NCBI GenBank assembly: GCA_030603365.1
Contig: JAUVXV010000003.1
Span: 64,001 to 128,000, forward strand
Origin: Candidatus Heimdallarchaeota archaeon
Lineage (GTDB): Archaea > Asgardarchaeota > Heimdallarchaeia > Heimdallarchaeales > Heimdallarchaeaceae
Length of the DNA: 64,000 nt
Direction of reading: 5' to 3'
Every line of letters starts with the position of its first letter. Position 1 is the first letter of the stretch. Made by a program: the position numbers and the translations under genes. Positions 14,381 to 44,512 of this stretch are shown piece after piece. The notes under the pieces were generated by a model. That model was not told the origin of the DNA and did not search any database. It saw only the letters and a program-made list of their open reading frames with translations.

Positions 14381-14399
14381 AAAAATTGTTTTAATAACT

Positions 14400-16275: not shown

Positions 16276-16343
16276 GAAAATACCTCCACATAATTAGAGT
16301 AGAGATTTTTCCTCTTATTTTACTTTAATCATTCATTGTTTCT

Positions 16344-17084
16344 TTAATGAAATACTCGATCAATCGCTGAATCTAGTTCAGGATCTTTTGTACTACCATC
16401 AAAGGCTATTACTTTGTTAATGCAAATCATTCTACTACAATAAGCTCTTAGAAGTTCAAGATTATGTCCAACATTTACAATAGTAATTCCATGGGTATGA
16501 TTTAGAAAGTCAAGTAGTTCCATGATCTCCTCAGTCATACGAAAATCAAGGGCACTAGTAAATTCATCCAATAAAAGAACCTCAGCTTCAGCTGCTAAAG
16601 CTTGTGCAATCAGTACTCTCTGTTGTTGACCTCCACTGAGATGACCTATAGGACGCTCAGCCATATAATCCATATCAACTAGTTTTAGAGCATCCATTGC
16701 TTTCTGTTTATCTTCAGCTGTTAAAGATTTAACAAGACCTGCTTTGGCATACCTCCCCATTTCTACAACATCTCGGACAAGAGCTGGAAAATTACGGTCT
16801 ATTTCTGTAATCTGAGGTACATAGCCTATTTTGAATCTAATTTCCTTTGGTATTTTATCCCTTATTTCTTGACCAAAAAGAGCAACTTGTCCGGTAAGTG
16901 GTTCAATTAGTCCAATTATAGTTTTTAATAAAGTTGTTTTACCTGATCCATTTGGGCCACAAATTCCTACGAAGTCACCTTTCAAAATATCAATATTTAT
17001 ATCATATAATGCTGCCAAATTACCATAAACAACATTTACGTCTTTAAGACAGGCTATAATCTCTGGCTTTTCCTCTTTGCTCAT
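16344..17084 (-). CDS. znuC: Zn/Mn ABC transporter ATP-binding subunit
   Basis: GPNGSGKT, IGYVPQ, LSGGQQQR, LLLDE. Confidence 0.88.
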   Translation of the reverse strand: MSKEEKPEIIACLKDVNVVYGNLAALYDINIDILKGDFVGICGPNGSGKTTLLKTIIGLIEPLTGQVALFGQEIRDKIPKEIRFKIGYVPQITEIDRNFPALVRDVVEMGRYAKAGLVKSLTAEDKQKAMDALKLVDMDYMAERPIGHLSGGQQQRVLIAQALAAEAEVLLLDEFTSALDFRMTEEIMELLDFLNHTHGITIVNVGHNLELLRAYCSRMICINKVIAFDGSTKDPELDSAIDRVFH

Positions 17085-18110: not shown

Positions 18111-18143
18111 TTGTGAATATAATTTATGAGTAGTACTTTATCT

Positions 18144-28079: not shown

Positions 28080-28811
28080 TTGTTGTCTATGAAGTCAGAT
28101 ACATCTATTAAACGTCTTATTCGTTGCTATGAATCTGATATAACATGTACTGGAGGAGTGGTTTTTATCGGTGATGGTCATACTGGGAAGACACACTCGG
28201 CTTTAAGTTTATCAAGTTATAGAGAAGGAGCTTTTATTGATGCACAGTGTAGGTCGCTTTCTAAGTCAATAAATTTAGAGTTTGAATATTTTATTGCTCA
28301 TGCAAATATTGAGCAATTCAAAGTAACTGTTAGTTCGCAACTGTTTATCATGCCTGGACAAAAAGGAAAAGCAGAAAAGGGAACAGGTCTAGCATTTGAA
28401 GATGCTTTAGACCTTTATTTTGATATCAGATCAATTGATGAAGTCATTGTGTTGGTTCTAACTTACAGTTTGGTCGATATAACTACTTTTCAGAATCTTG
28501 AATACTGGTTAAATCAAGCAATTGAACATGAGCTTATACAAGATTATACAAGTATAGTTCTATTGGGAACACATCTGGATGCTGAAGATTCAGTTCTTGT
28601 TTCAGATGAAAATGTTCAGCAAGGAATACAGTTCATAGAGCGATATGTTGAGGATAAAATAGGTATTCATATTAGTCCTGAAAGGATTATACCAGTCAAA
28701 ATTTCAAATGTAACTCAAGAAGGTATTAAAGAATTTCAAGAGGCAATAAGTGAAGGTTTTTATCATTCATTTGGAATCAAAGAGATAATAGATGACCAGT
28801 TAAATTGTTAA
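28080..28811 (+). CDS. Divergent Rab/Ras-like small GTPase
   Basis: G1 GDGHTGKT, G3 MPGQ, TFQNLEYW, G4 GTHLD, G5 ISNV; alternative start at ATG 28089. Confidence 0.7.
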   Translation: MLSMKSDTSIKRLIRCYESDITCTGGVVFIGDGHTGKTHSALSLSSYREGAFIDAQCRSLSKSINLEFEYFIAHANIEQFKVTVSSQLFIMPGQKGKAEKGTGLAFEDALDLYFDIRSIDEVIVLVLTYSLVDITTFQNLEYWLNQAIEHELIQDYTSIVLLGTHLDAEDSVLVSDENVQQGIQFIERYVEDKIGIHISPERIIPVKISNVTQEGIKEFQEAISEGFYHSFGIKEIIDDQLNC

Positions 28812-28825: not shown

Positions 28826-31800
28826 ATGAAAAGAGTAGAATTAGGTAAAATTACTAGTATATTGTTAATAGCTTTATGTTTCAACTCAGTATTATATTAC
28901 AATATTTCAAATTCAAGAAATGAGGATTTCAATCCATTTTATCCTGGAACTGAGATCATCGATAATTCACCTCCTGATGATTATTTTTATGATGATTATG
29001 ATGATTACAACCCTTTTTCAAATAGAATAAAAACAGAAATATTTGAGGGAGATTATAAGACTCAAGCTTTCTTTAGTTTTAACACTTTTACAACAAATTT
29101 AGATGGTAATGGATCAGGTTATCAGTGGACAGAATATGATGCTATTCCAAGTCACAGTGCTGTTGGAATGGATGCTGAAAGATTTGGTACTGGTGATATA
29201 ACCAATGCGGTTGTACCTTCAGTCAATGATACCTACTACTTAATGGGAGCTGATTATTGGGGTTCTGGTAGATATGCGTTGATGTACAGCCCATTATTGA
29301 CATATGATACCACAATCTCCGATAAGGTTCATTATATCTTTAACATGCATAGAGACTTAAATGATGATCCATTCAATTCTCGATTTAATAATATGGATTC
29401 TACTCTCAAAATAACACTTTGGCATTTTGAAACATCAACTCTGACCTCAACAGAGATTACGTCAGTCGAATATCTTATGCCAAAAATTAATACACCTACT
29501 GATACAGAATATTGGGAATGGTTAGAAACAAATAGTTCATTTTCTTCTTATACAATTCCCGCAGGTGATAGGTTTAAGATCACTTATATGATGAAATATA
29601 ACGATGTGGGGGCAACTGCAGGGCATTATACACTTGATATTATGGCAGATGGACTATATTCAGATACCGGGATTTTAGGTACCAATCTTGATTGGACTAT
29701 AACTGATGGTGTTCATTCAAATAATTATGTTATTACAAGCACTGACGGTATGCTTGGAGTACAACTTTATATGATAGAGGAAAATACTCCTGATATTACA
29801 TTTTACAATGCAATCAATGATACCGTATATTATACTGCACAAGAAATGAATATTGATGTGACCCCTGGTTCAACCAGTTCATACAGATGGGATTATGGAA
29901 GTTGGCAAAGTTTCTCTACTTCAACCACCACCACTTTACCAGCTGTTCATGCTTGGCACTACTTAGAAATAAGAGCAAGTGAAACTGAATATAATAATAC
30001 CCGATATGAGTATTATCAATTTATTTATGATGCTTCAGAAACGAATTTTGAATTACATGCACCGTACACGAATGGTTCGACTATAACTGGAGGTATTTTG
30101 CTTAATTTTACAGTTTATTATGTGGATACGGCAACCTATGAGTGGGACAAAAACGGTACCCAATTTCCTCTAACAGATCCTTATGATATCATTACTCCTG
30201 ACTTTGAATTAGATCACAATATTACCATAAGAACCTCTGATTTCTATATGAATGAAACATTAAGGTATTTCTTCACATTTAATTCAGATCTACCTAGTGT
30301 GACACTTGATAATGTTTTGAATGGTGGAACATATGCACCTCTCAAAACAATAGATGTAGAAATCTTTGATTCAGTAGGAATAAAAGACGTCCAATATCAT
30401 TGGGATAGTGATTCTAATCTCACTTGGACACCAGCTACAGGTAATATCTATCGAACAAATCTCCCTCTTACTGATGGTGTTCATGTTCTGCATATTTATG
30501 CTTTAGACAATTACGATCAAGCGTTCTATACAAATTTTAATTTTATAACTGATAGTAACATTTTCTTAGTTGAATTACAGAATCTTTCTAACGATTCCTA
30601 TGTTCTGGGAGGAGAAACTGTCAAGATAACAATTCAGAAAAGCAATGGAACTGCTTATTTTGTGTGGGATAGTGGAGCGGTTAAAGTGGGGACAATAACA
30701 TCGCAAACAATGACATTAGCGGGAGCAAACAGCTTACCAACATCAGTAGGTTCACACAATCTTACAATAATTGCATTTGATACATTTGACGTTGAATATG
30801 TGTTCTATTTCAAGTTCATAGTTGACATAGAAGCTCCAAATATAGTACCTGACGAAATTTACAGTTTTAGACGCTATGTTTCTTCTGGCACTACAATGTA
30901 CTTTACAATTACGGATAATGAAGTTTTTGGGGAAAATCTTACAGTTCTGATATCAATTGATGGTACAGTAAATGAAACCTTGAGTGCTGGAGCTTATTTC
31001 TACAATTTAGATTATCTGGTTGATGGCACTCATAGTTTTTATCTCTATGCAATTGATCTTGCAGGGAATTCCGACATACTCTATGTCGAATTTACAATAG
31101 ATAACACCCCACCAGAACTTGAATATAAGATTCCAGAATTAGTTCCTCTAGGTAGCGATAATTATGTTCCTGGAAATGCTGAAGTGATAGTTACTGTCAG
31201 TGATGCTTATTCTGGTGTTATAACTTATTATACTTGGGGAGGAGAACAGCATACTTTTAACGAAAGCTTTGTACTGCCTGCCGAAAATGCCTCTGGAACA
31301 TTGATAATTTATGCATACGATGGGTTACACACTTCAACTAATATTACAAGTATAATTATAGATATCGAAGCTCCAAGTGTCACTCTTATCGGGATGACAA
31401 ATACAACAGAAGAAGTAAACTTTTATACAGCATTGTATTTTGAGACAAGTGATGATTTAGGAGACAATACGATAGAATTAGTTCGATATTCGTGGGACAT
31501 TCTCCCTGGTGCTTGGTATACTAGCTCTGAGCATGATTTTAATGTGTCAGTTATACCCTTCTATGAACATGAAGATAATGTTGTTTTCTATGTTTACATG
31601 AAAGATATTGTTGGAAATAATCACATTGAATGGTTCATATTTAAAATAGATGATGAACCACCTAATCTTGATTTAGAGTTTTACGATGCTTCCGAAGAGA
31701 AATGGTTGGATATTGGTGATTCATTCTTTGCTCAAAGCAATCAAACAATAAGATACAATTCTTATGTAAATGAACCGGGAGAATTAATAACCTTTAATTA

Positions 31801-33586
31801 TTATTGGGCTCATAAAGGTCCTGAGGAATACAAAGGTTCCTTGAATGTAACAGAAGAATATCCAACGTTTGAAACACCCGAAACAGATGGTAATTATACT
31901 TTGGTAGTTATATTAATTGATAATGTAAACAATGAAATTAGTTTTAATATCACTTTCTTGATTGATAATATAGTTTTAACTTTTAATAGACCTGATGATT
32001 TTGACGAGAGTACAAATGCGTATGTCAATACTACAAGTTTGATTTATGGTGAGAATGTCAGTTATATTGTAGAAGTCACAGATTCTCTTACTCATTCAGA
32101 GATAGTAGGTCTTAAAATAAATCTTAATAATTCAGCTTTTGATTTCATTGTTAATGTTACAAAACTTGATAGTATTACTTATGAAATTCTAATTGTAGCT
32201 AACAATGTCACTGATAGTATTTTTGCTAAAATAGAAATTCAATTCTATAAATGGGAAGAGAGTAAACAATATATCCAAATCTACTTGAAGGTGGATAAAA
32301 AAGAAGGATCTCTTTTCATTCATCAAAGTAGTGTTGATACAGTTACCTATGGAGAGATTATTCCTGTCATAATATATCTTCAAAATGACTTAGGTTTAAA
32401 TGAGACAATTCTGTCTATAGTAGTTAATGGATTGATTACTGATATCAAAATTTTAGGTGATGGGTTGTATCAATTTAACTTCTCATCCACCGCACTAACT
32501 AGTAAAGGAAATCATACTCTGGACATTCAAGTTCAATCTGAGTTCTTTTATGGTTCGAACAGTGTTTTTACAATTGAGGTTTTACCAATTCAGTCTCAGA
32601 TATCAGTTGAAGTTACGAGTTATGAAGTACTAGAAGAATCACAAGTAGTTATCAGAGGTTTACTAACAGCAGACGATGGAACACCTCTTTCTGACCAAGA
32701 AATACTGGTTTATGTTTATATTGTTGAAGAATCAAATGGAAGACTTGTCTATGCTTTGAATATAGACGATTATGATGATTATAGAATTATTACAGTGTAT
32801 ACAGATGCTGATGGTTACTTTACTGCATCTTTCCAGATGTATGAGGGAATAGAGTATATTGACATAGAAGTATTCTATGATGGTAATAATCATCATGATA
32901 TCTCCTCTTCTGTTCTAGATGCTTCTGTTTATTCAATGAAACCTCCAGGACTTCCATCTTGGTTATTATATACAATTATTGGTGGAAGCGTGCTTTTGGG
33001 TTTGATTGTTTCACTAATTATATACAAGATAGTTAAACCTAAACCATTTGAAGCTTTAATGGAAAAAATAACAGATGAACAAATAGCACTAAATTATTCT
33101 ATTATGTCTCCAGGTGTTGTTCTTTCCATTTTTGATCAAAGAAAAGGACCTGTACCTCTAGTAATGGATCATAGTTTAGAGCTAGGACAGTATGTAGGAC
33201 GACTAAGAATGGGGACAGAGAATTTCATACTTAAAATCTCTGACCAGGCATACAGCTCGCTTGGTTTCGAAGAACATGATACAGGTCGTAGAGTTGGTTC
33301 TATTGTTCTACCAGGAGAAAAAATGGTGGGATGGGTACATGGAATACAACTACCAAATGAAACCGCAAGAGGGGGATTTGAAAATCTTTCATTAATCGTT
33401 CTAGCAGATTCAGAATATAGTAATTTACTATTAAATTATCAAGATTACTTATACGATGAAGCAGACAAGTTAGTTGAAGTTCTAAAGGCAAAAAACCAGC
33501 TCGATAATATTAAAATCATTATAGAGGGAATAAGGAAGAAATCAGTAATAATAATGCTAGCAGCGCAAGGGATAGAAGAGAAATAA
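28826..33586 (+). CDS. Giant single-pass surface protein: signal peptide, Ig-like repeats, TM, cytoplasmic uDENN/longin-like domain (paralog A)
   Basis: Repeating YxWD...GxHxLxIxAxD...D..P units; TM WLLYTIIGG...IIY; tail with IFDQRKGP and LPNETARGG. Confidence 0.75.
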   Translation: MKRVELGKITSILLIALCFNSVLYYNISNSRNEDFNPFYPGTEIIDNSPPDDYFYDDYDDYNPFSNRIKTEIFEGDYKTQAFFSFNTFTTNLDGNGSGYQWTEYDAIPSHSAVGMDAERFGTGDITNAVVPSVNDTYYLMGADYWGSGRYALMYSPLLTYDTTISDKVHYIFNMHRDLNDDPFNSRFNNMDSTLKITLWHFETSTLTSTEITSVEYLMPKINTPTDTEYWEWLETNSSFSSYTIPAGDRFKITYMMKYNDVGATAGHYTLDIMADGLYSDTGILGTNLDWTITDGVHSNNYVITSTDGMLGVQLYMIEENTPDITFYNAINDTVYYTAQEMNIDVTPGSTSSYRWDYGSWQSFSTSTTTTLPAVHAWHYLEIRASETEYNNTRYEYYQFIYDASETNFELHAPYTNGSTITGGILLNFTVYYVDTATYEWDKNGTQFPLTDPYDIITPDFELDHNITIRTSDFYMNETLRYFFTFNSDLPSVTLDNVLNGGTYAPLKTIDVEIFDSVGIKDVQYHWDSDSNLTWTPATGNIYRTNLPLTDGVHVLHIYALDNYDQAFYTNFNFITDSNIFLVELQNLSNDSYVLGGETVKITIQKSNGTAYFVWDSGAVKVGTITSQTMTLAGANSLPTSVGSHNLTIIAFDTFDVEYVFYFKFIVDIEAPNIVPDEIYSFRRYVSSGTTMYFTITDNEVFGENLTVLISIDGTVNETLSAGAYFYNLDYLVDGTHSFYLYAIDLAGNSDILYVEFTIDNTPPELEYKIPELVPLGSDNYVPGNAEVIVTVSDAYSGVITYYTWGGEQHTFNESFVLPAENASGTLIIYAYDGLHTSTNITSIIIDIEAPSVTLIGMTNTTEEVNFYTALYFETSDDLGDNTIELVRYSWDILPGAWYTSSEHDFNVSVIPFYEHEDNVVFYVYMKDIVGNNHIEWFIFKIDDEPPNLDLEFYDASEEKWLDIGDSFFAQSNQTIRYNSYVNEPGELITFNYYWAHKGPEEYKGSLNVTEEYPTFETPETDGNYTLVVILIDNVNNEISFNITFLIDNIVLTFNRPDDFDESTNAYVNTTSLIYGENVSYIVEVTDSLTHSEIVGLKINLNNSAFDFIVNVTKLDSITYEILIVANNVTDSIFAKIEIQFYKWEESKQYIQIYLKVDKKEGSLFIHQSSVDTVTYGEIIPVIIYLQNDLGLNETILSIVVNGLITDIKILGDGLYQFNFSSTALTSKGNHTLDIQVQSEFFYGSNSVFTIEVLPIQSQISVEVTSYEVLEESQVVIRGLLTADDGTPLSDQEILVYVYIVEESNGRLVYALNIDDYDDYRIITVYTDADGYFTASFQMYEGIEYIDIEVFYDGNNHHDISSSVLDASVYSMKPPGLPSWLLYTIIGGSVLLGLIVSLIIYKIVKPKPFEALMEKITDEQIALNYSIMSPGVVLSIFDQRKGPVPLVMDHSLELGQYVGRLRMGTENFILKISDQAYSSLGFEEHDTGRRVGSIVLPGEKMVGWVHGIQLPNETARGGFENLSLIVLADSEYSNLLLNYQDYLYDEADKLVEVLKAKNQLDNIKIIIEGIRKKSVIIMLAAQGIEEK

Positions 33587-33600: not shown

Positions 33601-36600
33601 ATGACTAGAAATAACAACAAGATTTTTGGACTAATACTTATAATTTTATGTTTTAATACAGTGACCCATCAAGAGATTCTAAACACAGAATCAACTAACT
33701 CTGATGTTGAAAACCTATTGAATGATCCTCCTTATACTCCAAGTTTTCCAGGCTATGTAGACAAAGCTGAAAATCCTGATGATAGTTCACTTATAACAAA
33801 TACCGAAATCGAGGGAGAGTTTCAAACTTTAGCATTTTTCCCTGGTGGAACAGGTAAAATTTATGGGGAATCTCGAGTAGGTGAGACCCTGATCAATGAT
33901 CCAGCAGGTGAGGATCCATATGATAGAAGAAATATTTTTGAATGGGTTACCTACGACGATATCAAAGATGATGGAACATTAAATAAAGAGATGTACTGGA
34001 GAGCTCTGAGTGATGAACCTCTTACTTGGCCGAATTCTACAGATTGGTTCTACATGAGAGAGAGAAATTCTCCACATGAACCTTCCAAAATTTATAGTCC
34101 AGTTTTCACAGAGGACTATGAAATCACAGGAAGAGTCTACTGGTTATCTTGGTTTGAATCAAATGACGATCCTCCTTTTTCAGAAGCAATAAACATTGGT
34201 TATCGTCAGAGTCTTTACCTCTTCAACCCAGCAGATCCTTCCAATCCCACTTTACTTGCTAGTATACAGAGTATATATTATGAACCTAACATCTGGGCAG
34301 GTCAAAGAACACACTTTGCAGATTTAGTTGGAACTACACTAATTCCTGCTGGTTATAGATTAAGATGGGATATTGAAATACGGTTCAGTTTAGTTCCTTC
34401 AGCAGGATCTTTTCTCCAGTATACTGGTTACCTACATACTGGTGGTGGTTCAACAACATGGACAATCGATGATCCTGATCCAATTTATGATAGCACATAT
34501 ACAATTAATAATGTGACAAGGATGTCAGGAATTCAACTTAGAATGCGTTCTAAAGGATATCCTACCATAAATGTGTTAGGAGCGACTGACAATGCTGTTT
34601 ATCAGGTTCTTCAGAATATGACTATCGATGTGACTGATGGTTCGATAAGTTCATATCAGTGGAATGGTGGAAGTTGGACTTCTTTTAGTGATTTAACGAC
34701 CACTTCTCTTCCTGATAATCATGGTTGGAATGAACTTGAAATAAAAGCAAGTGATCCAGTTTTTAACAACACAAAGATTGTTACTTATATCTTTGGATAT
34801 GATAAGTCCTTGATTAATGTTGTACTTAATAGTCCTCTTACGAATGGGTCGACTATAACGGGTGGAACTACCATTGATTTGGATGTTTTCAGTGTAAACC
34901 TAACAGAATACATGTGGGATAATAATGGAACGTGGGTTCTTTTAGAGAGTCCATATAACATAAGCGCTCCAGATTTTGATGGAGAACACATACTAACAGT
35001 TCGAACATCTGATTTCTACACTATTGAATCTGTTGTCTATATTTTTGTTTTCGATTCTACTAATCCAATAATTCAGTTATATAATGTAGTCAATGATACA
35101 ACGCATGCCCCCAACAAAGTAATTGAGTTCAATATTACAGATAATTCTGCTATTCAAACTGCTTACTATAATTGGGATTCAGGAACTGATCAATTATGGA
35201 CACCTGCACAAGGAACCATTTATCAAACTAGCCTACCAATAGGTATTGGATATCATGAACTAGTTACAAAAGCAAATGATACATTCGGTCATTATACTGA
35301 ACAATTCTATCGGTTTTATACAGATGATCAGTTGTTCTTATTAGAACTTGCTGAATTACGTAATGATTCTTATTATCTAGGTGGAGATGATGTTGTTATT
35401 AACGTTCAAAAAAGTAATGGAACCATTAAATATGTCTGGGATAGTGGTACTATCAAAGACGGGAGTATCATTGCATCTCAAATGACACTAACAGGTGTAG
35501 ATGCTATGCCTACTACAGCAGGTCCCCATAATTTAACAATTATAACTTTTGATCTTATAGGGACAATGTATGTTTTTTACTTTAACTTCATTGTAGACCT
35601 TGAAGCTCCAATCATAGATGGTTCAATAGTTTCTCTCTATAACGACACAAGATTTACGACTGATAACACAATGGAATTTATTATAACTGATAATTATACC
35701 CGAACAAACCAACTTATTATCTATATATCAATTGATGGTAAAGCTAACCAAACCCTTAACTCTCCTTTTGAATTACATCTCTATACATTTAACGATGCTA
35801 CTCACTATTTCACAATATATGTCTATGATTTAGCAGGTAATTACGCTATTCAGACCATCTTCTTCCATATTGATACTCTTGCACCTATAATTGAAATAGA
35901 TATCCCAAGTATGATTGTTTTTCAAGAAACGAATTATGTTACAACAGGGGCAGAAGTTATAGTTACTGTAGATGATTTAGATCCTCTTGTTGATACATTT
36001 TACTCTTGGTCAGGAGCTGCTAATTCAAGCTTCTCAGGAAGTATAACTTTAAGTTATGGAGATAGTACAGGTGATCTTCTAATATTCGCAAATGATTCGT
36101 TGGGACATCTTGATTATTATACTATTATTCTAATTATAGACAATACAGCCCCACAATTATTCCTTTCCTCCCCAAATGTGCTTGATGAAATTAATAGATT
36201 TACTGACCTCGAATTCGATATCAATGAAGAGAATATCCAAACAGTTAACTCTATTGGATATTATTGGGATAAATTGCCTTTTTATTATTTCAATACAACA
36301 TACGATAGTTACGATAGCTTTGCACTAAGAATTCCTTCCCTTTTCTTCGATGGACCAGGTGCATATGTAACAGGAAATACTGCAACTCTTGTAATAGAAC
36401 TTTATGACATCCTAGGACATTCTGTATTTGGTAGTTTCGATTTTATTATAGACAGAGATGCTCCTATTCCTGGTTTATACCTGAATGAAAGTGGTGTAAT
36501 AACGCAATTGGAAGAAGGAATCATTTATACAAGTTTAGGCGAAACACCTCTTCTGTATAAGAATGATACAAATGATGACATAGCGGATTTATACTGGATT

Positions 36601-38427
36601 TGGGATGATGACGATGCAACAGGTGATTCATTAGAATTTGGTGGTATTTTAACTGGTGGATATTTGCTAGTAGATATTGTGCCACCAGAAGATGGCCGTC
36701 ATTATCTAAGAGTAGTTTTAACAGATAATACGATAAGTAGTCAACCAAATTTTATAGAATATATTTTCAACATTACTGTAAATGATATTAATATTGATAT
36801 TACTGAACCTAATCCTGAAATGTGGGTTGAGGAAGCAGATTTCTTGTCTTACCATCATAGAATGAACTATACTGATTCATTTAGTTTTACTGTTAATATC
36901 ACAGATACAGTAGATGGTTTAGAAATTCCAGATTTGCAAAATAGAACTATTTCAAGAGTATATAATCTCTTAGCAAGCATTGTTCAACTTGACAATACTA
37001 TCTATGAATGTACTATTGTAGCTACTAATGTTACAAATGGTCTTGAAACACATATAGATTTTGAATTTTACTTAATCGACGGTGGTTCTCAGAAGCTAAG
37101 GTTTTACTTGATTGTAGATAAAAAACTTGGTAGTCTGGAAATACTTGATAAAACAGAACTTACAGTTCAATACGATGAGGATATCGATGTTTACATTGGG
37201 TTAAAAGATCATCTTAGTCAAAATCTTTCAATTATTTATGTTGAAGTCAACTCTCTGATTACTAGTTTTTACAATATAGAAAATACTACAGAATTCTGGT
37301 TCAGATATTCAACACATGGGTTAGAAGAAGGAGAGCATGCAATTACCATTTATGCAGAGAGTACATTTTATTATGCAAAATTGGAAGGTAATTTGACTTT
37401 CGAATTTACAGTCACTCCACTACCCATTTTCATAGATATACAAGTCTCCAATTCTACTGTTTTAGAAGGAACAGAATTTACAATAACTGCAGCATTAACC
37501 TTCCAAAATGGAACAGGATTTGCTGGACAACTTTTACACTTCTTTGTATACTCATATTCGTATGAAACAACAACAGGAGAAGTTTCAGCAGCAATCCCAA
37601 CAAATTATACAACTTATATTATATCAAACAGAACAACCAACATCAATGGTATAGCAACCATAATATTTACTATGTCAACTGAAATTGATTATGTCCTTAT
37701 TGCAGTTACTTATGATGGTGGTGATTTTGTTGACACTTCATACTCTGAATTTGATGAGAAGGTAGTTAAAATTTTTCTACCTGGTTTTCCAAGTTGGTTA
37801 CTTTATACTTTGATTGGTGGAAGTCTATTTGTAATTTTAATAATCTCCCTCATTGTTTATCGAGTAACACGAGGTAAACCATTCGAAGAAGTAATGGAAA
37901 TCGTAACAATTGATGAGATAAAAGAACGATATGAGACTTTATCACCTGGCGTGATTCTAACAATATTTGATCAGAAAAAAGGACCAATACCTCTTATTGC
38001 ATCTCATTCTCTAGACACAACTAGATATCTTGGTCGTATGCAGATTGGTGTTGAAAATTTTATGCTTAAAATAGCTGATCAAGCTTATAGCTCTCTAGGT
38101 TTTGAGGAGCATGATGTTGGAAGAAGAGTAGGTTCGATAATTCTTCCTACAGAGAAGATGATAGGATTTGTTCATGGTGTTCAACTCCCTAATAAGATGG
38201 CTCGAGGTGGTTTTGAAAATCTATCATTAATTGTTCTTGCAGATTCGGAATTTGGTAACTTATTACTAAATTATCAAGAATATATTTATGATGAAATTGA
38301 TGTTATTATTGAAGCTTTGAAGACTAAGAAGCATTTGAAACAAGTTGAAGAATTACTGCGAATAGTTAGACATAAATCAGTTAAGGTCATGCTTACCGCA
38401 GAAAAAGTTGAACAAAAGAAAGGATAA
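33601..38427 (+). CDS. Giant single-pass surface protein with cytoplasmic uDENN/longin-like domain (paralog B)
   Basis: Same architecture; tail with IFDQKKGP and LPNKMARGG; GGAGG before the ATG. Confidence 0.75.
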   Translation: MTRNNNKIFGLILIILCFNTVTHQEILNTESTNSDVENLLNDPPYTPSFPGYVDKAENPDDSSLITNTEIEGEFQTLAFFPGGTGKIYGESRVGETLINDPAGEDPYDRRNIFEWVTYDDIKDDGTLNKEMYWRALSDEPLTWPNSTDWFYMRERNSPHEPSKIYSPVFTEDYEITGRVYWLSWFESNDDPPFSEAINIGYRQSLYLFNPADPSNPTLLASIQSIYYEPNIWAGQRTHFADLVGTTLIPAGYRLRWDIEIRFSLVPSAGSFLQYTGYLHTGGGSTTWTIDDPDPIYDSTYTINNVTRMSGIQLRMRSKGYPTINVLGATDNAVYQVLQNMTIDVTDGSISSYQWNGGSWTSFSDLTTTSLPDNHGWNELEIKASDPVFNNTKIVTYIFGYDKSLINVVLNSPLTNGSTITGGTTIDLDVFSVNLTEYMWDNNGTWVLLESPYNISAPDFDGEHILTVRTSDFYTIESVVYIFVFDSTNPIIQLYNVVNDTTHAPNKVIEFNITDNSAIQTAYYNWDSGTDQLWTPAQGTIYQTSLPIGIGYHELVTKANDTFGHYTEQFYRFYTDDQLFLLELAELRNDSYYLGGDDVVINVQKSNGTIKYVWDSGTIKDGSIIASQMTLTGVDAMPTTAGPHNLTIITFDLIGTMYVFYFNFIVDLEAPIIDGSIVSLYNDTRFTTDNTMEFIITDNYTRTNQLIIYISIDGKANQTLNSPFELHLYTFNDATHYFTIYVYDLAGNYAIQTIFFHIDTLAPIIEIDIPSMIVFQETNYVTTGAEVIVTVDDLDPLVDTFYSWSGAANSSFSGSITLSYGDSTGDLLIFANDSLGHLDYYTIILIIDNTAPQLFLSSPNVLDEINRFTDLEFDINEENIQTVNSIGYYWDKLPFYYFNTTYDSYDSFALRIPSLFFDGPGAYVTGNTATLVIELYDILGHSVFGSFDFIIDRDAPIPGLYLNESGVITQLEEGIIYTSLGETPLLYKNDTNDDIADLYWIWDDDDATGDSLEFGGILTGGYLLVDIVPPEDGRHYLRVVLTDNTISSQPNFIEYIFNITVNDINIDITEPNPEMWVEEADFLSYHHRMNYTDSFSFTVNITDTVDGLEIPDLQNRTISRVYNLLASIVQLDNTIYECTIVATNVTNGLETHIDFEFYLIDGGSQKLRFYLIVDKKLGSLEILDKTELTVQYDEDIDVYIGLKDHLSQNLSIIYVEVNSLITSFYNIENTTEFWFRYSTHGLEEGEHAITIYAESTFYYAKLEGNLTFEFTVTPLPIFIDIQVSNSTVLEGTEFTITAALTFQNGTGFAGQLLHFFVYSYSYETTTGEVSAAIPTNYTTYIISNRTTNINGIATIIFTMSTEIDYVLIAVTYDGGDFVDTSYSEFDEKVVKIFLPGFPSWLLYTLIGGSLFVILIISLIVYRVTRGKPFEEVMEIVTIDEIKERYETLSPGVILTIFDQKKGPIPLIASHSLDTTRYLGRMQIGVENFMLKIADQAYSSLGFEEHDVGRRVGSIILPTEKMIGFVHGVQLPNKMARGGFENLSLIVLADSEFGNLLLNYQEYIYDEIDVIIEALKTKKHLKQVEELLRIVRHKSVKVMLTAEKVEQKKG

Positions 38428-38525: not shown

Positions 38526-40421
38526 ATGTCCTATCTCTTCGATGAACTATCAGGAAAAGAAGACAGCAAAGCTACAGTTGAAGATAAGATTCTTCTTATG
38601 GGTCTTCAAGCTGCAGGAAAAACTGCTATCAAAGACGTTGTCTTCTTCAACAAACAACCTGAAGAAGTTAACGATTATATGGCTACAGTACACTATCAAA
38701 GACAGTTCATTGATGAAGAACAAAAAAGTATGATTATAGACTCTGGTGGACAAGAAAGTTATTGGAATGAAGCTGTTACTCATTTTAGACATCTTGTTTT
38801 TTCCAATGTTAAGTTGTTAGTATGGATTGTAGATGTTACAAAACCAGAATTATTCGAAGAATCAGAAAGACGATTCAGTTTTACAATACGACAATATAAA
38901 AAAGAGAATCCAGATGGAAGCATCACTGTTTTATGCCACAAAGTTGATTTAGTTACTCCAGAAAAAATGATTGTAATTCATCAACATGTTAGAGATATGT
39001 TCAGTGATCCTCGTTTTGAAGTTGATTTCGAAAATACTAGTATCTACTACTCTGACAGTCTCAAAGAATTATTATTTACTATAATGGATGAAGCTGGTAT
39101 TAACACTAAACGATTCGAACTTATCTCTAATCTTGGTCAGAAAGTTGAAGAGAGTGATGAATTCCAGAGTTATGTTATGGAACATCAGGAAGATCCAAGA
39201 GTCCAACAGTTACGTGATTATTTAAATCCTGAACCTGAAGCTCTACTTCCTTCTTTTGGAAAATTAACTTTGCAATTCGATCTGAAAGAGTATGACATTG
39301 TTGAAATAGTACTTATTGAAAAAGAAACGAATTCTCCCATAGTTGGAGCTTCATCTCAAGCTAATGTAACTGCTGAAAATTCCATGGAATATCTTATTGG
39401 TCTTCATGATTTTAAGAATAAGTTAAAAGAAAATGGAGAAAGTATAGACCCAACAGGGACAGTGTTTACATCATCTACAGGAAAAGTACATGCATTGGTG
39501 TTCAGTCTTGATGTTAATTATCTCCTTATTACTTCTTTCGATCCAATAACTGACGAGAGGAAAGAATTACTTTTTGAGCTAATCCTTAGATTCGCTCAAT
39601 CAACAACTGCAGCTGCAGAAGCTCCTCCTCCTCCTAGTGCTCCAGCTGTTATTGAAGAACCAGTTGCTCAACCCGATCCAATCGCTGAACAACCTGTTGC
39701 ACAACCAGAACCAGTTAAAGCAGCTGAAGAAGTGGCAGTTGCTCAAGAAACAATTGAGGTTCAAGAAGAAATTCCAGTTGAAGTAGCGGCTCCATTAGAA
39801 GTTGAAACTGCTGTCCCGGAAGCAAAACCAATTAAAATTGAAGAGATATTAACTGCTGAAGAAAAAGATGCAGGATTTTTCGAACCAGCTATAGTTGGGG
39901 ATGAATTTCTAGGTAAGGAAGAGCCTGTTACAGTAGTTGAATCTGAACCAATTCCTGCCACAACGGAAGAAGTTACAAAAATCTCTCAACCTGAGGTACA
40001 AGAGAAAGTTGCTGAAGCTGTTTCTGGAGAAAGAGAAGTTAAAATTGAAGACCCAGTTCCAGTTGTAACACCTCCAACACCTCAACCTGCTAAAGTTGTT
40101 GAAGAAGGTGTTCCTGAACCTCCCAAAGTTGAACTTGAACCTGAACCAACTCCTATTACTGAGGAACCTAAGGTAGAACTAATTCCTGTTCTAGCTGAAG
40201 TAGGAACACCCAAACAAGATCCAGTTGAAGCTACAGGAGATGGATTAACGATTAATTTTTCAGCTGATGATATCAAAAACTTTGCAAACTTCTTAGTTCA
40301 GAAAAAAGAAATAATTCTAGATGAATCTATAAATATCGAAGATATTAAAGGACTGTCCAATTTCTTATTTAAAGGGATAACAGAAGATAAAGAAGAACAA
40401 AAAGAAGAAGAATCAGACTAA
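38526..40421 (+). CDS. Rag/Gtr-like GTPase + roadblock domain + long acidic Pro/Glu/Val-rich tail
   Basis: KILLMGLQAAGKT, ATV, DSGGQ, VFSNV, HKVD, TSIY; first ATG at 38526. Confidence 0.82.
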   Translation: MSYLFDELSGKEDSKATVEDKILLMGLQAAGKTAIKDVVFFNKQPEEVNDYMATVHYQRQFIDEEQKSMIIDSGGQESYWNEAVTHFRHLVFSNVKLLVWIVDVTKPELFEESERRFSFTIRQYKKENPDGSITVLCHKVDLVTPEKMIVIHQHVRDMFSDPRFEVDFENTSIYYSDSLKELLFTIMDEAGINTKRFELISNLGQKVEESDEFQSYVMEHQEDPRVQQLRDYLNPEPEALLPSFGKLTLQFDLKEYDIVEIVLIEKETNSPIVGASSQANVTAENSMEYLIGLHDFKNKLKENGESIDPTGTVFTSSTGKVHALVFSLDVNYLLITSFDPITDERKELLFELILRFAQSTTAAAEAPPPPSAPAVIEEPVAQPDPIAEQPVAQPEPVKAAEEVAVAQETIEVQEEIPVEVAAPLEVETAVPEAKPIKIEEILTAEEKDAGFFEPAIVGDEFLGKEEPVTVVESEPIPATTEEVTKISQPEVQEKVAEAVSGEREVKIEDPVPVVTPPTPQPAKVVEEGVPEPPKVELEPEPTPITEEPKVELIPVLAEVGTPKQDPVEATGDGLTINFSADDIKNFANFLVQKKEIILDESINIEDIKGLSNFLFKGITEDKEEQKEEESD

Positions 40422-40423
40422 GT

Positions 40424-41653
40424 TTAAACTGGTCTGCTGTCATCATATCTTCTATATTCTAAATCTCCATCAAGAAAGATTGGTATTTCTCTTATACCTT
40501 CTACACATTCATGTAATGGGAACATCTCAACTGATGTTGCACCAAATCCTTTTTGGACTTTAATACCTCTTTCAAGATTTTCAGAATTTTCTACTGCAAC
40601 ATCGATTATAGATTTCTGAAGATTACGACCACAAATATCACATTTAAATGAGATTGACTGTTCTACTCTTCTTTCAATTGTTTCACCTTTCTCAAGACCT
40701 TTTTTGAGTAGGTAATCTACTAAAGTGCCTTTCATCTTTATTCTTGCTCTTCCTATTAGTTCATCTGCTTGGAAAAGCTCTTTCATCTCAGCGGCAAGAT
40801 TCATGAAGTATTCTATCTCTTCATCTACTGAATGCTGAGGAGGAAAGACAGTTGTTAGAATAAGATCTTGATCTACTTCTCTCATATATACTCTGTTTTC
40901 ATCAAATGAGAATGTCACATAATCTAATTGTAATGTTGGTGAAAACATCTTGGCAAGATCATTTTTTAGTTTAACAAAATTGAATCCTGTATATCTCTCT
41001 GGTTGAGAATAGAGCATTAGACCTTGAGCAGTTGATAATGAAAGAAAAACCAAATCTTGTTTGCTAAAAGCTTCCTTAATTTTAACAGACTTTGTATCAT
41101 CTTTTGGAAAGACATATGCAATCACTTGTTGCATTGCGTCCCAGATTGTATCTTCAAAGATTGAAGTTGCAAATAGATCAGCATTCGTAAATTTGTCAAT
41201 CTCAAAAATATCTTTTATTGATTGTAAAACAGGTTCTCTTTTATTTGGTGGAACAACATCCATTTTATGTGCAAAAACATAAATTCTTGCTCCCTCTGAT
41301 AGTTGTTTAGCGTTTTCCATTGTCAGATCAAAATAATACTTAGATCTCATAATGTTTGAAGCATCAGAAATATCGATAACGAAAATGAATGCTTTTACAT
41401 CACTGAAGGTTCTTTCTTTGTATTGTTCAAATACTTCATTCAAGTAATTGGATTGCCCTCCAACATCAAATAGGTTAATGGCACTTCCTGCAAGATTGAA
41501 CAGTTTTCTGTTAATACGAACAGTCGCAGGGTTCATTGATGTTGCTTCTGGAGCAAAGCCTTCGAAAACTACTTGACGTATAGAAGTTTTACCAGACTGA
41601 GATAAGCCAAGAACGACAATTTTGGATTCTAATTCATTTCCACCAGTGTACAT
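40424..41653 (-). CDS. Rag/Gtr-like GTPase + roadblock domain + C-terminal Zn-binding domain
   Basis: GLSQSGKT, PATV, FDVGGQ, HKMD, TSIFED; CDIC...HEC at the C-terminus. Confidence 0.85.
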   Translation of the reverse strand: MYTGGNELESKIVVLGLSQSGKTSIRQVVFEGFAPEATSMNPATVRINRKLFNLAGSAINLFDVGGQSNYLNEVFEQYKERTFSDVKAFIFVIDISDASNIMRSKYYFDLTMENAKQLSEGARIYVFAHKMDVVPPNKREPVLQSIKDIFEIDKFTNADLFATSIFEDTIWDAMQQVIAYVFPKDDTKSVKIKEAFSKQDLVFLSLSTAQGLMLYSQPERYTGFNFVKLKNDLAKMFSPTLQLDYVTFSFDENRVYMREVDQDLILTTVFPPQHSVDEEIEYFMNLAAEMKELFQADELIGRARIKMKGTLVDYLLKKGLEKGETIERRVEQSISFKCDICGRNLQKSIIDVAVENSENLERGIKVQKGFGATSVEMFPLHECVEGIREIPIFLDGDLEYRRYDDSRPV

Positions 41654-42054
41654 GTACCTTCATGTCTAAACCTATTATTTCCTTATAAAATGTTTATGTT
41701 ACTCCTAAATTATAAGTAGATGGTTTCAAACTTTATTAGAACGAATTTCATGATTTTGTTCTAGATAGTTTGTCTGAAGGTCTCCTTCTTGTAAGATGGG
41801 GTTTCGAATCATGAACTCTTACTGGCTAACACGACCACCTTCTTGAATAGGGCACCTTTTTGAAAGGTATCAGTCTTTACAGCAAAATGCAACAAGAATT
41901 ATAAGTGTGATAGTATGATGGGGATTGAGTAATATGAACAGAAGAATGATCAAGTTAGTTTTTCCAGTATTTCTCTTTTCTCTTACACTTTGCGTTGTCT
42001 CAGTATAGAGAAAATATGCAAAAAGATAATAACATCTTTCTTCACATTTTAGTT

Positions 42055-43497
42055 ATGGCCTACGATGTGATTGTAATAGGTTCAGGTTTGGGTGGATTGG
42101 TGGCAGCCGCGAAACTTGCTAAAGAGGGGAAGAAAGTTCTTGTTGTTGAACAGCATTCCAGTATAGGAGGATATGCAACCTGCTTTACAAAGAAAAATTT
42201 CACTGTCGATGTAGGTTTCCATTCTATGGATGGGCTCTATGTTCAAGATCCCAAAATAAAAGTTTTCGAAGATTTAGATGTTTATATTAATATCGAGTTC
42301 ATTAAAATCCCAACAGGTTATTTCAGATTTACTAATGAGAGAGTTGATTTTACTTTACCTGATACAGTTGATGAAGCTATTACCGAACTTAAACAACAAT
42401 TTCCAGAAGAAGAAAAGGGTATTCGTACTTTCTTTAAAACCATTGAAAACATATCAACATCAAAGTGGAGTAATAAATCAGTAGGAGAAATGTTAGATTC
42501 ATTATTTCGAAATGATGATATTAAATTAGTCTTAACAGGGGCAATGTTATATTATGGTGATGATCCTTATACTACTTCAGCTAAAGCATTCTCAACTGCA
42601 GTTTCAAGGATATTCAAAGGAGGAAATCATTACATAAAGGGAGGTTCGTTGAAACTTACAGATTATTTTGCAAATTTTATTAAAGAACATGGGGGTACTA
42701 TTACTTTAAATAAAAAAGTTACAAAAATTCTTACTGACTCTCTTGGTTTAATTACAGGAGTTGAATATGAGTCAACTTCTAATGATGATACTGTGAAAAC
42801 TCAAGTTGATGCTAACTTTGTTATTCTAAATGCTTCAGTACCTCAAGTAGCAAATGTTTTGTTACCTGAAAATGAGACTACCTCTCTATTAAGAGAAGCA
42901 GTTAAACAAATGAAATTAGGCCATTCTGTTCTGAATGTCTATTTAGGGTTTGATACTCCCCTTGATAAATTAGGTCACAAAGATTATCTTACCGTTGTAA
43001 ACGACCAAAGTGTTTTCAAGCTTAGTGATGTATTTGGGAACAATAATACAGGTTATTCAAAAAGGAATTTTCTCTTTGTAGATTACAGTCAAATTGATAG
43101 TGGGATGGCCCCATATGGGAAAAGTACGGGTGTTATTAGTACAATTGATTATATAGAAAATTGGTCTAAGTTGGATGAAGACAATTATAAGTCAAAGAAA
43201 AAGCAAGTTGAAACAGAATTCATTGAAAGATTAGACAAACTCATTCCAGGTGTTAAAGATCACATAGAGTTCGTTAGTGTTGCAACACCAAAAACAATGA
43301 AAAGATATACACTCAATCCAAAAGGATCAATCATTGGATTTGCTCGAACACCAATCCAAGTGGAAATGTACCCTCTAAAATCACCAATAAAGAACTTGTA
43401 TTTCTCATCTACTTGGTCAATTCCAGATGGAGGGTTTACTTCAATAATAGAAGCTGGATGGAATAGTGCTGTTTCAATATTAAGAAAAAGAAGATAG
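42055..43497 (+). CDS. Phytoene desaturase (CrtI)-family FAD-dependent oxidoreductase
   Basis: IGSGLGG, EQH..IGGY, GGS..L, ATPKT..RYT.NP.GSI.G, NLYF..W..P.GG. Confidence 0.85.
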   Translation: MAYDVIVIGSGLGGLVAAAKLAKEGKKVLVVEQHSSIGGYATCFTKKNFTVDVGFHSMDGLYVQDPKIKVFEDLDVYINIEFIKIPTGYFRFTNERVDFTLPDTVDEAITELKQQFPEEEKGIRTFFKTIENISTSKWSNKSVGEMLDSLFRNDDIKLVLTGAMLYYGDDPYTTSAKAFSTAVSRIFKGGNHYIKGGSLKLTDYFANFIKEHGGTITLNKKVTKILTDSLGLITGVEYESTSNDDTVKTQVDANFVILNASVPQVANVLLPENETTSLLREAVKQMKLGHSVLNVYLGFDTPLDKLGHKDYLTVVNDQSVFKLSDVFGNNNTGYSKRNFLFVDYSQIDSGMAPYGKSTGVISTIDYIENWSKLDEDNYKSKKKQVETEFIERLDKLIPGVKDHIEFVSVATPKTMKRYTLNPKGSIIGFARTPIQVEMYPLKSPIKNLYFSSTWSIPDGGFTSIIEAGWNSAVSILRKRR

Positions 43498-43516: not shown

Positions 43517-44512
43517 CTATCTGAATTCAAGTTTGTTTATTTTCAGGAATTCTTCATGAACTAAATGACTCAGTGCAAAAAGAAACTGAGGATAACTCTG
43601 ATTAGGATTCATTTCCTTGTAAGTATCAAGTATAGATTTTTCATGATTAGTCAGATAGAATACTATAAGTTCCTTACAGAGAATTTTGATGTTGGGACTC
43701 AGTTCTTGGAAAATAGTGGCTTGCTCAGTATTAAATCTTCGTAGACCTTCAGAAGATGACTTTGGAAAAGCGATTGTGGAATTAACAAGGAGATCTAACT
43801 CGACAAGATTTCTTTCTGTAGGTTCTTCAACGATATTATCATCTATGAATTCAGCAATTAATTTCAAAACCACTTCATCTAGATATACTAGTGATTCAAG
43901 AGTATCTGCTATATGTTGTATCCATTTTCTAGCTTCAGTAAATGGAAAAGATTTTTGTCCTTGTTTTGAAGCTGTTTTTAGTTGATGTTTCCACTCCTTA
44001 TAGATCCGATCTACTATTTTGGCAGAAATAAAAACTTGTATCTCAATAAACCCTAGAGTTGACTTTATTGTAATTCTTTTTCCTTCTTCTTTTTTGTCAA
44101 AAGTATATTTGCTGTTTCGGATTTTGTCAGTTATCTCCAAACCTGTGATATTTATCCTTTCGAAAGTTTTAGTGTCAAAGACCTTTTCTACCATTGCAAT
44201 TTTTTGGGGAGTAGGAATTCCAAGTGATTTAAAAATATCTTGTTCATCTTCTCCTGTTGAAAAATCTCTATCAGTTTCATAACCATAGTGAGTCGATTTA
44301 ATGTGAACCTGAGATCTTACTGTAAGAAAATTATCAATAAAACACTTTATTGCAGAGAGATTGTTCTGAGCACAGTTATGGACATCAACAAATTCTAGAA
44401 TTGTTGAAAGAGTATCAGATTTCAGTAGCTTAGATGGAATGTTTAGATTCCGTTGCTTTTGACATTTATTGCATTGATATTCTACCTTTTTTATTCCATT
44501 CTGACTACTCAC
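43517..44512 (-). CDS. Hypothetical protein with N-terminal CxxC...HxC Zn-binding domain
   Basis: CNKC...VHNC...FIDNFLTVR; possible C-terminal winged helix. Confidence 0.6.
   Translation of the reverse strand: MSSQNGIKKVEYQCNKCQKQRNLNIPSKLLKSDTLSTILEFVDVHNCAQNNLSAIKCFIDNFLTVRSQVHIKSTHYGYETDRDFSTGEDEQDIFKSLGIPTPQKIAMVEKVFDTKTFERINITGLEITDKIRNSKYTFDKKEEGKRITIKSTLGFIEIQVFISAKIVDRIYKEWKHQLKTASKQGQKSFPFTEARKWIQHIADTLESLVYLDEVVLKLIAEFIDDNIVEEPTERNLVELDLLVNSTIAFPKSSSEGLRRFNTEQATIFQELSPNIKILCKELIVFYLTNHEKSILDTYKEMNPNQSYPQFLFALSHLVHEEFLKINKLEFR

What the first reader, a model, noticed from the sequence alone, without database searches (positions are those of the whole stretch)
38526..41653. Convergent Rag-like pair with RagA-like and RagC-like roadblock domains
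Seen: two GTPases with the Rag-type G4 (HKVD, HKMD) and TSI(Y/F) G5, whose stop codons are 2 nt apart. From recalled sequences, the 38526 protein's EIVLIEKETNSPI...LHDFKNK resembles RagA EVLLFERATFLVI...IKQFKLS, and the 40424 protein's VYMREVDQDLILTTV resembles RagC LYLKEVTKFLALVCI. Inference: an obligate asymmetric heterodimer analogous to RagA/RagC. The abutting 3' ends imply overlapping antisense transcripts.
Basis: partly seen in the sequence, partly recalled or inferred. Interest (0 to 1): 0.72.

Follow-up and report, generated by a model that had tools for sequence, protein, structure and literature searches.

The report
Conserved asymmetric Rag-like GTPase pair
Two tail-to-tail genes of a Heimdall-group Asgard archaeon encode different relatives of the eukaryotic nutrient-signalling Rag GTPases; they are inherited together beside a giant surface protein with a folliculin-like inner tail, so they probably act as a pair, but they are not one-to-one counterparts of RagA and RagC.

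Summary
Gene A (38526-40421 +, 631 aa) and gene B (40424-41653 -, 409 aa) both pass Pfam Gtr1_RagA. Both have invariant HKxD and (T/S)SI motifs, and each has a roadblock-type domain after the G domain. Their stop codons are 2 nt apart.

The pair is tail-to-tail (0-72 nt gaps in the ten loci fetched) in 22 genomes of two Heimdallarchaeia families. It lies in a four-gene module: a divergent small GTPase, one or two giant single-pass surface proteins whose cytoplasmic tail carries a GP motif, then A and B.

The RagA/RagC labelling fails. In an Asgard-only tree A and B are old, separate paralogues; B's nearest kin are roadblock-less GTPases that sit beside other such giants.

The tails differ. A has a ~215-aa disordered tether ending in two helices. 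B ends in an invariant CxxC...HxC module that has no Pfam family.

Heterodimer prediction gave only weak support (0.55; best control 0.00). Homodimers, a tree including eukaryotes, and RNA overlap could not be tested.

The scan has met this same pair before on other genomes. Asgard Rag-like pairs are also published (Tran 2024). I class it as a new variant of a known kind.

The parts
38526..40421 (+). Gene A: 631-aa divergent Rag-family GTPase
   Evidence: ORF; PF04670 5.3e-26; 120+ orthologues, N-terminus MSYL invariant
38577..39095 (+). A, G domain (aa 18-190). P-loop GLQAAGKT, DSGGQ, HKVD, TSIY; invariant helix FEESERRFSFTIRQ
39108..39275 (+). A, three-helix insert between the G domain and the roadblock domain (aa 195-250); RFEL conserved
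39282..39611 (+). A, roadblock-type C-terminal domain (aa 253-362)
   Evidence: Strand/helix order in the AF2 model, pLDDT 70-89. The model aligns over 20-363 with full Rag chains
39612..40253 (+). A, disordered P/E/V/A-rich tether (aa 363-576). Its length and sequence vary among orthologues
   Evidence: pLDDT 29-40; gappy columns in A2
40263..40373 (+). A, two C-terminal helices (aa 580-616) carrying a repeated DIKxFxNFL-type motif
40422..40423 (.). Two-base spacer between the convergent stop codons
   Evidence: the gap is 0-72 nt in nine orthologous loci
40424..41653 (-). Gene B: 409-aa RagA/Gtr1-like GTPase with an added C-terminal module
   Evidence: ORF; PF04670 9.4e-36; orthologues nearly all 406-416 aa
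41099..41632 (-). B, G domain (aa 8-185). P-loop GLSQSGKT, DVGGQ, HKMD, TSIF
40772..41098 (-). B, roadblock domain (aa 186-294; helix-2 strands-helix-3 strands-helix)
   Evidence: Z 22-23.7 over 272-281 residues to Gtr1/RagA; TM-score 0.68-0.70 normalised by target length
40427..40654 (-). B, C-terminal beta-rich CxxC...HxC module (C338, C341, H381, C383 invariant; ends LEYRRYxxSRP). No Pfam family
33601..38427 (+). Context: giant single-pass surface protein 2 (1608 aa). Its cytoplasmic tail (37825-38424) has FDQKKGP and ARGGFENL motifs
28826..33586 (+). Context: giant surface protein 1 (1586 aa) with the same tail (32984-33583)
28080..28811 (+). Context: 243-aa divergent Ras-superfamily GTPase at the head of the conserved module

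Best explanation
A and B are two anciently diverged Rag-family GTPases. Each has a nucleotide-competent G domain followed by a roadblock domain. They are kept together as one unit of a four-gene module in Heimdallarchaeia.

Most likely they pair through their roadblock domains into an asymmetric Rag-style dimer (inferred). Each subunit would bring a different appendage. A brings a long flexible tether ending in short helices, possibly a docking or membrane-binding peptide. B brings a probable zinc-binding module, possibly an output or anchoring domain.

The dimer probably acts below the adjacent giant surface protein. That protein's cytoplasmic tail carries the GP motif and conserved arginines typical of GAP-type (folliculin/SMCR8/NPRL2) longins, so it could switch one of the GTPases off (inferred).

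The pair is an archaeal parallel of RagA/B-RagC/D. It is not a one-to-one orthologue pair of them.
For: Family and fold:
- Pfam Gtr1_RagA for both proteins.
- All G motifs are intact and invariant.
- B matches full-length Gtr1/RagA at Z 22-23.7 (rmsd 4.1-4.7 A, 272-281 residues aligned), against Z 17-19 for chains with a G domain only.
- A aligns with Rag chains over both domains.

Joint function:
- The tail-to-tail pair is found in 22 genomes of two families, with gaps of 0-72 nt in the ten loci fetched.
- Of 43 genomes, 26 have both genes, 10 have neither and 7 have one; in at least 5 of those 7 the lone gene lies within about 1 kb of a contig start.
- In G014 the order is rearranged, yet all four genes stay clustered.
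- The A and B subtrees have the same branching order.

Heterodimer:
- ipSAE was 0.55 with a best control of 0.00, graded 'weak support'.
- The tool's mark was reached by 58 of 80 solved complexes and 2 of 110 mismatched pairs. At 0.60 or under it was reached by only 7 of those 80 and by both mismatches.
- The runs agree in at least 56% of their contacts, and the partner's pLDDT is at least 79.
- Rag dimers are solved, so this pass may come from the model's memory.

Link to the giant's tail:
- The module is conserved.
- The tail keeps G53-P54 and R127-G128-G129.
- All four proteins with this tail in this genome lie next to a small GTPase gene; for the two on contig C11 that gene is a B-like Rag-type GTPase.
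- A giant with the same tail in another Asgard family is also flanked by Rag-likes.
- PMC12290439 describes GP-motif longins in Heimdallarchaeia and asks which GTPase they serve.

Not RagA/RagC orthologues.
Against: - No binding or activity has been measured.
- The complex score is in the band that the tool calls more often wrong than right unless the pairing was likely beforehand. A:A and B:B homodimers could not be run.
- Solved Asgard Rag-likes are a homotetramer (8yl2) and a monomer (8zla, 9m28), so heterodimers are not the rule in Asgards.
- The folliculin likeness of the tail rests here on Pfam hits below threshold (E 0.0015 and 0.02) and on motifs. A tail profile found nothing in PDB sequences.
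- The GTPase directly upstream of the giants, the 243-aa protein, could be the tail's client instead of A or B.
- A's CTD model has only moderate confidence, and its domain orientation differs from solved Rags (rmsd 13 A over both domains).
Confidence: 0.55

Rival explanations
1. The two work in one pathway but form no heterodimer. A and B act in the same receptor-linked module, but each works as a monomer or homo-oligomer, for instance as successive switches or as clients of different regulators. The conserved adjacency then reflects co-regulation only.
For: Solved Asgard Rag-likes are homotetrameric (8yl2) or monomeric (8zla, 9m28). The heterodimer score is only 'weak support'. The roadblock domains of A and B show no detectable sequence similarity. 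B's nearest relatives lack a roadblock domain yet also sit beside tail-bearing giants, so a B-type G domain can work without a dimerising domain.
Against: Both proteins keep a roadblock domain, the known Rag dimerisation device, across two families. The pair is co-present or co-absent in 36 of 43 genomes. The unrelated-protein controls in the complex test scored 0.00.
Confidence: 0.3
2. One reading: the A/B split is the same duplication that gave RagA/B and RagC/D, so the heterodimer predates eukaryotes, with one gene on each side.
For: The G4 motifs are HKMD in B and HKVD in A. From my own recall, not a tool result, these mirror RagA and RagC. RagA's HKMD is visible. The tails are asymmetric and the G domains are only 31% identical.
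Against: Both profiles score higher to RagA/Gtr1 than to RagC/D/Gtr2, and so do two other Asgard Rag-likes. Structure matches for A tie between RagA and RagC. In the Asgard-only tree B groups with roadblock-less paralogues, and A sits on a long branch among other Asgard Rag-likes. An earlier follow-up on the orthologous pair in another genome (e1-5394719) reports trees placing both in one archaeal branch; I did not reproduce this.
Confidence: 0.07
3. The adjacency is incidental: two unrelated paralogues that happen to abut, with no shared function.
For: The genome holds 24 matches to PF04670, so GTPase genes are common in it.
Against: The same orthologous pair keeps the same orientation in 22 genomes, down to 51% identity for A and 56% for B. 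Flanking genes outside the four-gene module differ between families.
Confidence: 0.02

Closest known systems
Eukaryotic Rag heterodimers: RagA/B-RagC/D (human) and Gtr1-Gtr2 (yeast); PDB 6s6a, 3r7w, 4arz, 6u62
   Same: A G domain with HKxD and TSI motifs, followed by a roadblock C-terminal domain. There are two unlike paralogues. B superposes on full-length Gtr1/RagA at Z 22-23.7.
   Different: There is no one-to-one orthology; both proteins lean towards RagA. B adds about 115 residues with a CxxC...HxC module. A adds a three-helix insert, a ~215-aa disordered tether and terminal helices. I did not look for Ragulator or TORC1 components. The dimer itself is not shown.
Asgard Rag-like GTPase-roadblock proteins (Tran et al. 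2024, PMC10933270), including the operonic MK-D1 pair with an AF2-predicted Gtr1/Gtr2-like heterodimer
   Same: An archaeal G-domain-plus-roadblock architecture, with adjacent paralogues predicted to pair through their roadblock domains.
   Different: The pair is convergent rather than operonic. It is limited to two Heimdallarchaeia families. Both members carry extra, unlike C-terminal parts. It is embedded in a module with a giant surface protein.
LokiRagO (PDB 8yl2, homotetramer) and LokiRagM (8zla, 9m28, monomer)
   Same: Solved Asgard Rag-like GTPases with the same two-domain fold (B versus 8yl2: Z 20.9).
   Different: These are homo-oligomeric or monomeric. They match B's profile at only 61-73 bits. 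No paper on them was found in the library.
Folliculin/SMCR8/NPRL2-type GAP longins and their Heimdallarchaeial look-alikes (PMC12290439)
   Same: The neighbouring giants' tails keep a GP motif in a strand-loop-strand setting, plus conserved arginines. In eukaryotes such longins are GAPs for Rags.
   Different: Here the domain is the cytoplasmic tail of a ~1600-aa single-pass surface protein. Pfam Folliculin hits are below threshold. Activity and the client GTPase are unknown.

Membership tests
Rag/Gtr GTPase family (Pfam PF04670 Gtr1_RagA) | G domain scores above the family's gathering threshold | tested here: met
   A 91.9 bits and B 123.8 bits, against a cut-off of 22
Rag/Gtr GTPase family (Pfam PF04670 Gtr1_RagA) | Rag-type G4 HKxD (His in place of Asn) and G5 TSI, with intact P-loop and DxxGQ | tested here: met
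   Read directly from the sequence and invariant in 36+36 orthologues. RagA and Gtr1 show HKMD and TSIW in the alignments
Rag/Gtr GTPase family (Pfam PF04670 Gtr1_RagA) | C-terminal roadblock domain directly after the G domain | tested here: met
   B. A: with lower confidence and a 55-aa helical insert before the domain
Rag/Gtr GTPase family (Pfam PF04670 Gtr1_RagA) | Heterodimer of two unlike paralogues through the roadblock domains | tested here: inconclusive
   ipSAE 0.55 versus best control 0.00, graded 'weak support'; homodimers not run
Rag/Gtr GTPase family (Pfam PF04670 Gtr1_RagA) | Docking on a Ragulator/EGO scaffold and signalling to TORC1 | not tested
   I did not search the genome for LAMTOR-like partners of this pair
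RagA/B versus RagC/D orthologous groups | One member specifically nearer RagA/Gtr1 and the other specifically nearer RagC/Gtr2 | tested here: not met
   B: 104 versus 62-64 bits. A: 52-59 versus 43-45 bits. Z values for A are tied. A eukaryote-inclusive tree could not be built here
Asgard G-domain-plus-roadblock Rag-like proteins (Tran et al. 2024) | Asgard origin, Rag-like G domain followed by a roadblock domain | tested here: met
   Source names of the orthologues are Heimdallarchaeota or Heimdallarchaeaceae; for the architecture see the rows above
GAP-type (FLCN/SMCR8/NPRL2) longin, for the neighbouring giants' tails | Longin fold with a GP motif before strand 2 and a catalytic arginine | tested here: inconclusive
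   G53-P54 and R127 are conserved. Pfam Folliculin hits are E 0.0015 and 0.02, below the cut-off. I made no structure of the tail. The PDB profile search found nothing

The most novel reading that the evidence does not exclude
The four-gene module is a complete archaeal signalling chain from surface receptor to GAP-type longin to Rag dimer. The giant protein senses something outside the cell. Its GP-motif longin tail sets the nucleotide state of an asymmetric A:B Rag dimer. That dimer is held at the membrane or at its target by A's tethered helix and B's zinc module, doing the job that Ragulator does in eukaryotes. On this reading the folliculin/GATOR-Rag partnership predates eukaryotes and began at the cell surface rather than on a lysosome.
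Probability: 0.3. Interest if true: 0.85.

Novelty: new variant of a known kind. Interest (0 to 1): 0.6.

Why it matters
Rag GTPases and their longin GAPs (folliculin, GATOR1) are the core of eukaryotic amino-acid sensing. A 2025 survey found GP-motif, arginine-finger longins in Heimdallarchaeia and asked which archaeal GTPase they serve (PMC12290439). This locus offers a concrete and cloneable answer to test: two unlike Rag-family GTPases, always inherited together, next to a membrane protein that carries such a longin-like tail. It also shows that Rag-style asymmetry can arise without being the RagA/RagC split, which cautions against reading HKMD/HKVD motifs as orthology. B's C-terminal CxxC...HxC module is a rare domain with no Pfam family and may be of interest in itself.

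Tried and rejected
- Upstream TTG start at 38466 for A: rejected, because MSYL at 38526 is invariant.
- Lead e1-5504186 (B's zinc module shared with the N-terminus of the 331-aa protein at 43517-44512): rejected. A module HMM finds only B in the whole genome, and BLASTP finds no alignment of the two regions. That gene is near the pair only within the genus.
- Tail-of-giant profile against PDB sequences: no match at E up to 10.
- ESM Atlas for B residues 296-409: no usable hit.
- Pfam and NCBIfam for B's C-terminus and A's tail: nothing.
- Eukaryote-inclusive phylogeny: not possible. The word-indexed search returned no eukaryotic Rag. No session sequence shares three or more test 5-mers with Rag motifs.
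Synteny was obtained from the genome search and the fetch from genomes instead.
- Rfam and tRNA scans: nothing in 38-42 kb.
- Literature searches for 8yl2/8zla/9m28 and LokiRagO/LokiRagM found no paper.
Full report
WHAT IS THERE. The window is G000:C13:64001-128000 of a 3.65-Mb, 17-contig, about 89% complete genome with roughly 33% G+C in the window. Public sources label its closest protein relatives Candidatus Heimdallarchaeota or Heimdallarchaeaceae. Gene A runs 38526-40421 on the + strand (631 aa). Gene B runs 40424-41653 on the - strand (409 aa). Both stops are TAA and two bases separate them. A's start at 38526 is confirmed by an invariant MSYL N-terminus in 36 orthologues.

FAMILY. Both proteins pass Pfam Gtr1_RagA (A 5.3e-26, B 9.4e-36). 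Their best solved relatives by sequence are RagA and Gtr1. Every G motif is intact and invariant across orthologues:
- A: GLQAAGKT, T54, DSGGQ, HKVD, TSIY.
- B: GLSQSGKT, T44, DVGGQ, HKMD, TSIF.
Both should therefore bind and hydrolyse GTP. The two G domains are 31% identical, and the C-terminal domains show no BLASTP similarity.

FOLD. The AF2 model of B has mean pLDDT 75. After the G domain it shows helix, two strands, helix, three strands, helix (residues 186-294), which is the roadblock order. Residues 6-297 superpose on full-length Gtr1/RagA at Z 22-23.7 (rmsd 4.1-4.7 A, 272-281 residues) and on RagC at Z 20-21.3. Chains with only a G domain reach Z 17-19. Foldseek gives E 6e-19 and a TM-score of 0.68-0.70 normalised by target length. 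The model of A is confident only in its folded parts. It has a G domain, a three-helix insert (195-250), then two strands, helix, three strands, helix (253-362). It aligns with Rag chains from residue 20 to 363. RagA, RagC and Gtr chains tie at Z 12-14, and the rmsd is large because the domain orientation differs. Both C-terminal domains are therefore roadblock-type, more securely for B.

THE UNLIKE TAILS. A continues with about 215 disordered residues rich in P, E, V and A. Their length and sequence vary freely among orthologues. A then ends in two short helices (580-616) carrying a repeated, conserved DIKxFxNFL-type motif. B continues with two helices and a beta-rich module. In that module C338, C341, H381 and C383 and the ending LEYRRYxxSRP are invariant.

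A profile of B's module was searched against 1.84 billion representative proteins. It found only 30 clusters at E up to 0.001. Besides B orthologues, these are three kinds of protein:
- proteins of about 205-230 aa with hydrophobic, multi-helix N-terminal halves; one is labelled Kariarchaeaceae;
- proteins of about 270 aa; one is labelled Leptolinea, a bacterium;
- a few stand-alone copies.
The ten clusters scanned against Pfam gave no credible family. Within this genome the module occurs only in B. The proposed likeness to the 331-aa neighbour at 43517-44512 is not supported.

CONSERVATION AS A PAIR. Full-length B orthologues occur in two families of the class, coded f1 (the window's own) and f7. 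A orthologues occur in exactly the same two families. Of 43 genomes, 26 have both genes, 10 have neither, 3 have only B and 4 have only A. In at least five of those seven the lone gene lies within about 1 kb of the start of its contig. In 22 genomes the two genes lie tail to tail on one contig; the gap between them is 0-72 nt in the ten loci fetched. In G014 the order is rearranged: B follows the giant gene on one strand and A is divergent, but the cluster is kept. The A and B subtrees branch in the same order.

THE MODULE AROUND IT. In nine of the ten loci fetched from other genomes (the tenth ends at a contig end), the same genes recur. The order is the same except in G014 (described above): a protein of about 240-260 aa (window 28080-28811), one or two giants of 1440-1610 aa (28826-33586 and 33601-38427), A, then B. 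Genes outside this block differ between families.

The 243-aa protein is a divergent Ras-superfamily GTPase. It has a P-loop GDGHTGKT, MPGQ in place of DxxGQ, and THLD as G4. The giants have one membrane span followed by about 200 cytoplasmic residues. That tail is by far their best conserved part. It contains FDQ(K/R)KGPxPL in a strand-loop-strand setting and an invariant RGG in ARGGFENL. Pfam Folliculin matches both tails, but below threshold (E 0.0015 and 0.02). A tail profile finds nothing among PDB sequences.

PMC12290439 describes exactly such GP-motif, arginine-finger longins in Heimdallarchaeia and leaves their client GTPase open. Earlier follow-ups of this scan report a folliculin-like fold for these tails (e1-5504183, e1-5504171). 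I did not fold them.

Two further observations tie the tail to Rag-type GTPases. First, this genome has four proteins with this tail, and the two on contig C11 each sit beside a roughly 200-aa, roadblock-less Rag-type GTPase. Second, those short GTPases are B's nearest relatives in the tree (support 100/98). A 2321-aa giant in another Asgard family carries the same tail (E 4e-19) and is flanked by Rag-like genes.

RagA OR RagC? Profiles of the two orthologue sets were scored against all PDB sequences. B gives 104 bits to RagA/Gtr1 against 62-64 to RagC/D and 47-60 to Gtr2. A gives 52-59 against 43-45 and 22-42. Two other Asgard Rag-likes also lean towards RagA. The resemblance is thus that of any Rag roadblock domain.

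In a tree of 46 Asgard sequences, A (100/100) and B (100/96) are separate clades within one well-supported Rag-like group (100/97). A sits on a long stem. I could not obtain eukaryotic sequences by reference, so the decisive tree is still missing. An earlier follow-up on the orthologous pair elsewhere (e1-5394719) reports that such trees put both in one archaeal branch.

DO THEY BIND? One complex job was run with A 1-375 and B 1-409, each supplied with its own alignment. It scored 0.55 in three runs against 0.00 for three controls. The tool grades this 'weak support': the mark was reached by 58 of 80 solved complexes and 2 of 110 mismatches, but at 0.60 or under it was reached by only 7 of those 80 and by both mismatches. 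The runs agree in at least 56% of contacts, and the partner's pLDDT is at least 79. Because Rag dimers are solved, the pass may come from memory. No homodimer comparison was possible. Solved Asgard Rag-likes are a homotetramer and a monomer, so the rival of separate action remains serious.

3' ENDS. With 0-72 nt between the stops, each 3' untranslated region must enter the partner gene. In the window the first run of five or more T lies 21 nt beyond B's stop, inside A's Lys/Glu-rich last codons, and 129 nt beyond A's stop, inside B. Overlap is therefore likely by geometry.

VERDICT. This is a real, conserved, asymmetric pair of Rag-family GTPases in a receptor-linked module. The heterodimer and GAP coupling are plausible but only inferred. 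The RagA/RagC labelling is wrong as stated. Asgard Rag-like GTPases and an operonic, predicted-heterodimer pair are already published (PMC10933270), and this scan has met the same pair in other genomes. The new elements are the unlike appendages, the strict convergent pairing, and the link to giants with GP-motif tails.

Noticed in passing
window 40427-40768 (-); proteins P0195-P0221: B's CxxC...HxC...REIPxxxDxxLEYR module is a rare domain with no Pfam family: 30 clusters among 1.84 billion representatives. It also occurs at the C-terminus of proteins of about 205-230 aa with hydrophobic N-terminal halves (one labelled Kariarchaeaceae), in proteins of about 270 aa (one labelled Leptolinea, a bacterium), and as stand-alone copies.
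   Followed up: partly
G000 C11:140198-145509 and C11:60154-65286 (loci L004, L003): This genome has two more giants (1560 and 1459 aa) with the same cytoplasmic tail. Each lies next to a roughly 180-200-aa Rag-type GTPase without a roadblock domain. These short GTPases are B's nearest relatives in the tree.
   Followed up: partly
L026 (G397:C4) 2950-18135: In another Asgard family, a 2321-aa DUF2341/Laminin_G protein with the same tail (E 4e-19) is flanked by Rag-like genes of 319 and 369 aa. About 5 kb further on lies a co-directional pair of Rag-like genes of 520 and 302 aa.
   Followed up: partly
L027 3784-7952 and L028 3966-8872: In a third family (f20), a ~400-aa Rag-like gene overlaps by 4 nt the end of an upstream gene for a 991- or 1236-aa Ig/Laminin_G protein. 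In L027 the Rag-like gene has an N-terminal extension, a G domain and a Pfam Robl_LC7 hit. My tail profile did not match these large proteins.
   Followed up: partly
proteins P0065, P0067, P0068 (B orthologues at about 40% identity): This distant B subclade has lost the DxxGQ motif (IINAR or NVGEE in its place) but keeps the P-loop, HKxD and the zinc module. It may be a GTPase-dead variant of B.
   Followed up: no
window 28080-28811 (+): The 243-aa GTPase at the head of the module has MPGQ instead of DxxGQ and THLD as G4. Its only paralogue in the genome is at C1:441288-441968 (28% identity).
   Followed up: partly
window 41995-43497 (+): A flavin amine-oxidase-like protein next to B gives a Pfam GDI hit (E 1e-6). 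The hit covers only residues 22-66, the stretch that also matches many FAD/NAD(P)-binding families. The gene is near the pair only within the genus, so it is probably unrelated to the GTPases.
   Followed up: partly
window 7399-7475 (+): ARAGORN calls an odd tRNA with a four-base anticodon (attt), overlapping the start of the ORF at 7420-9135. Rfam does not report it.
   Followed up: no
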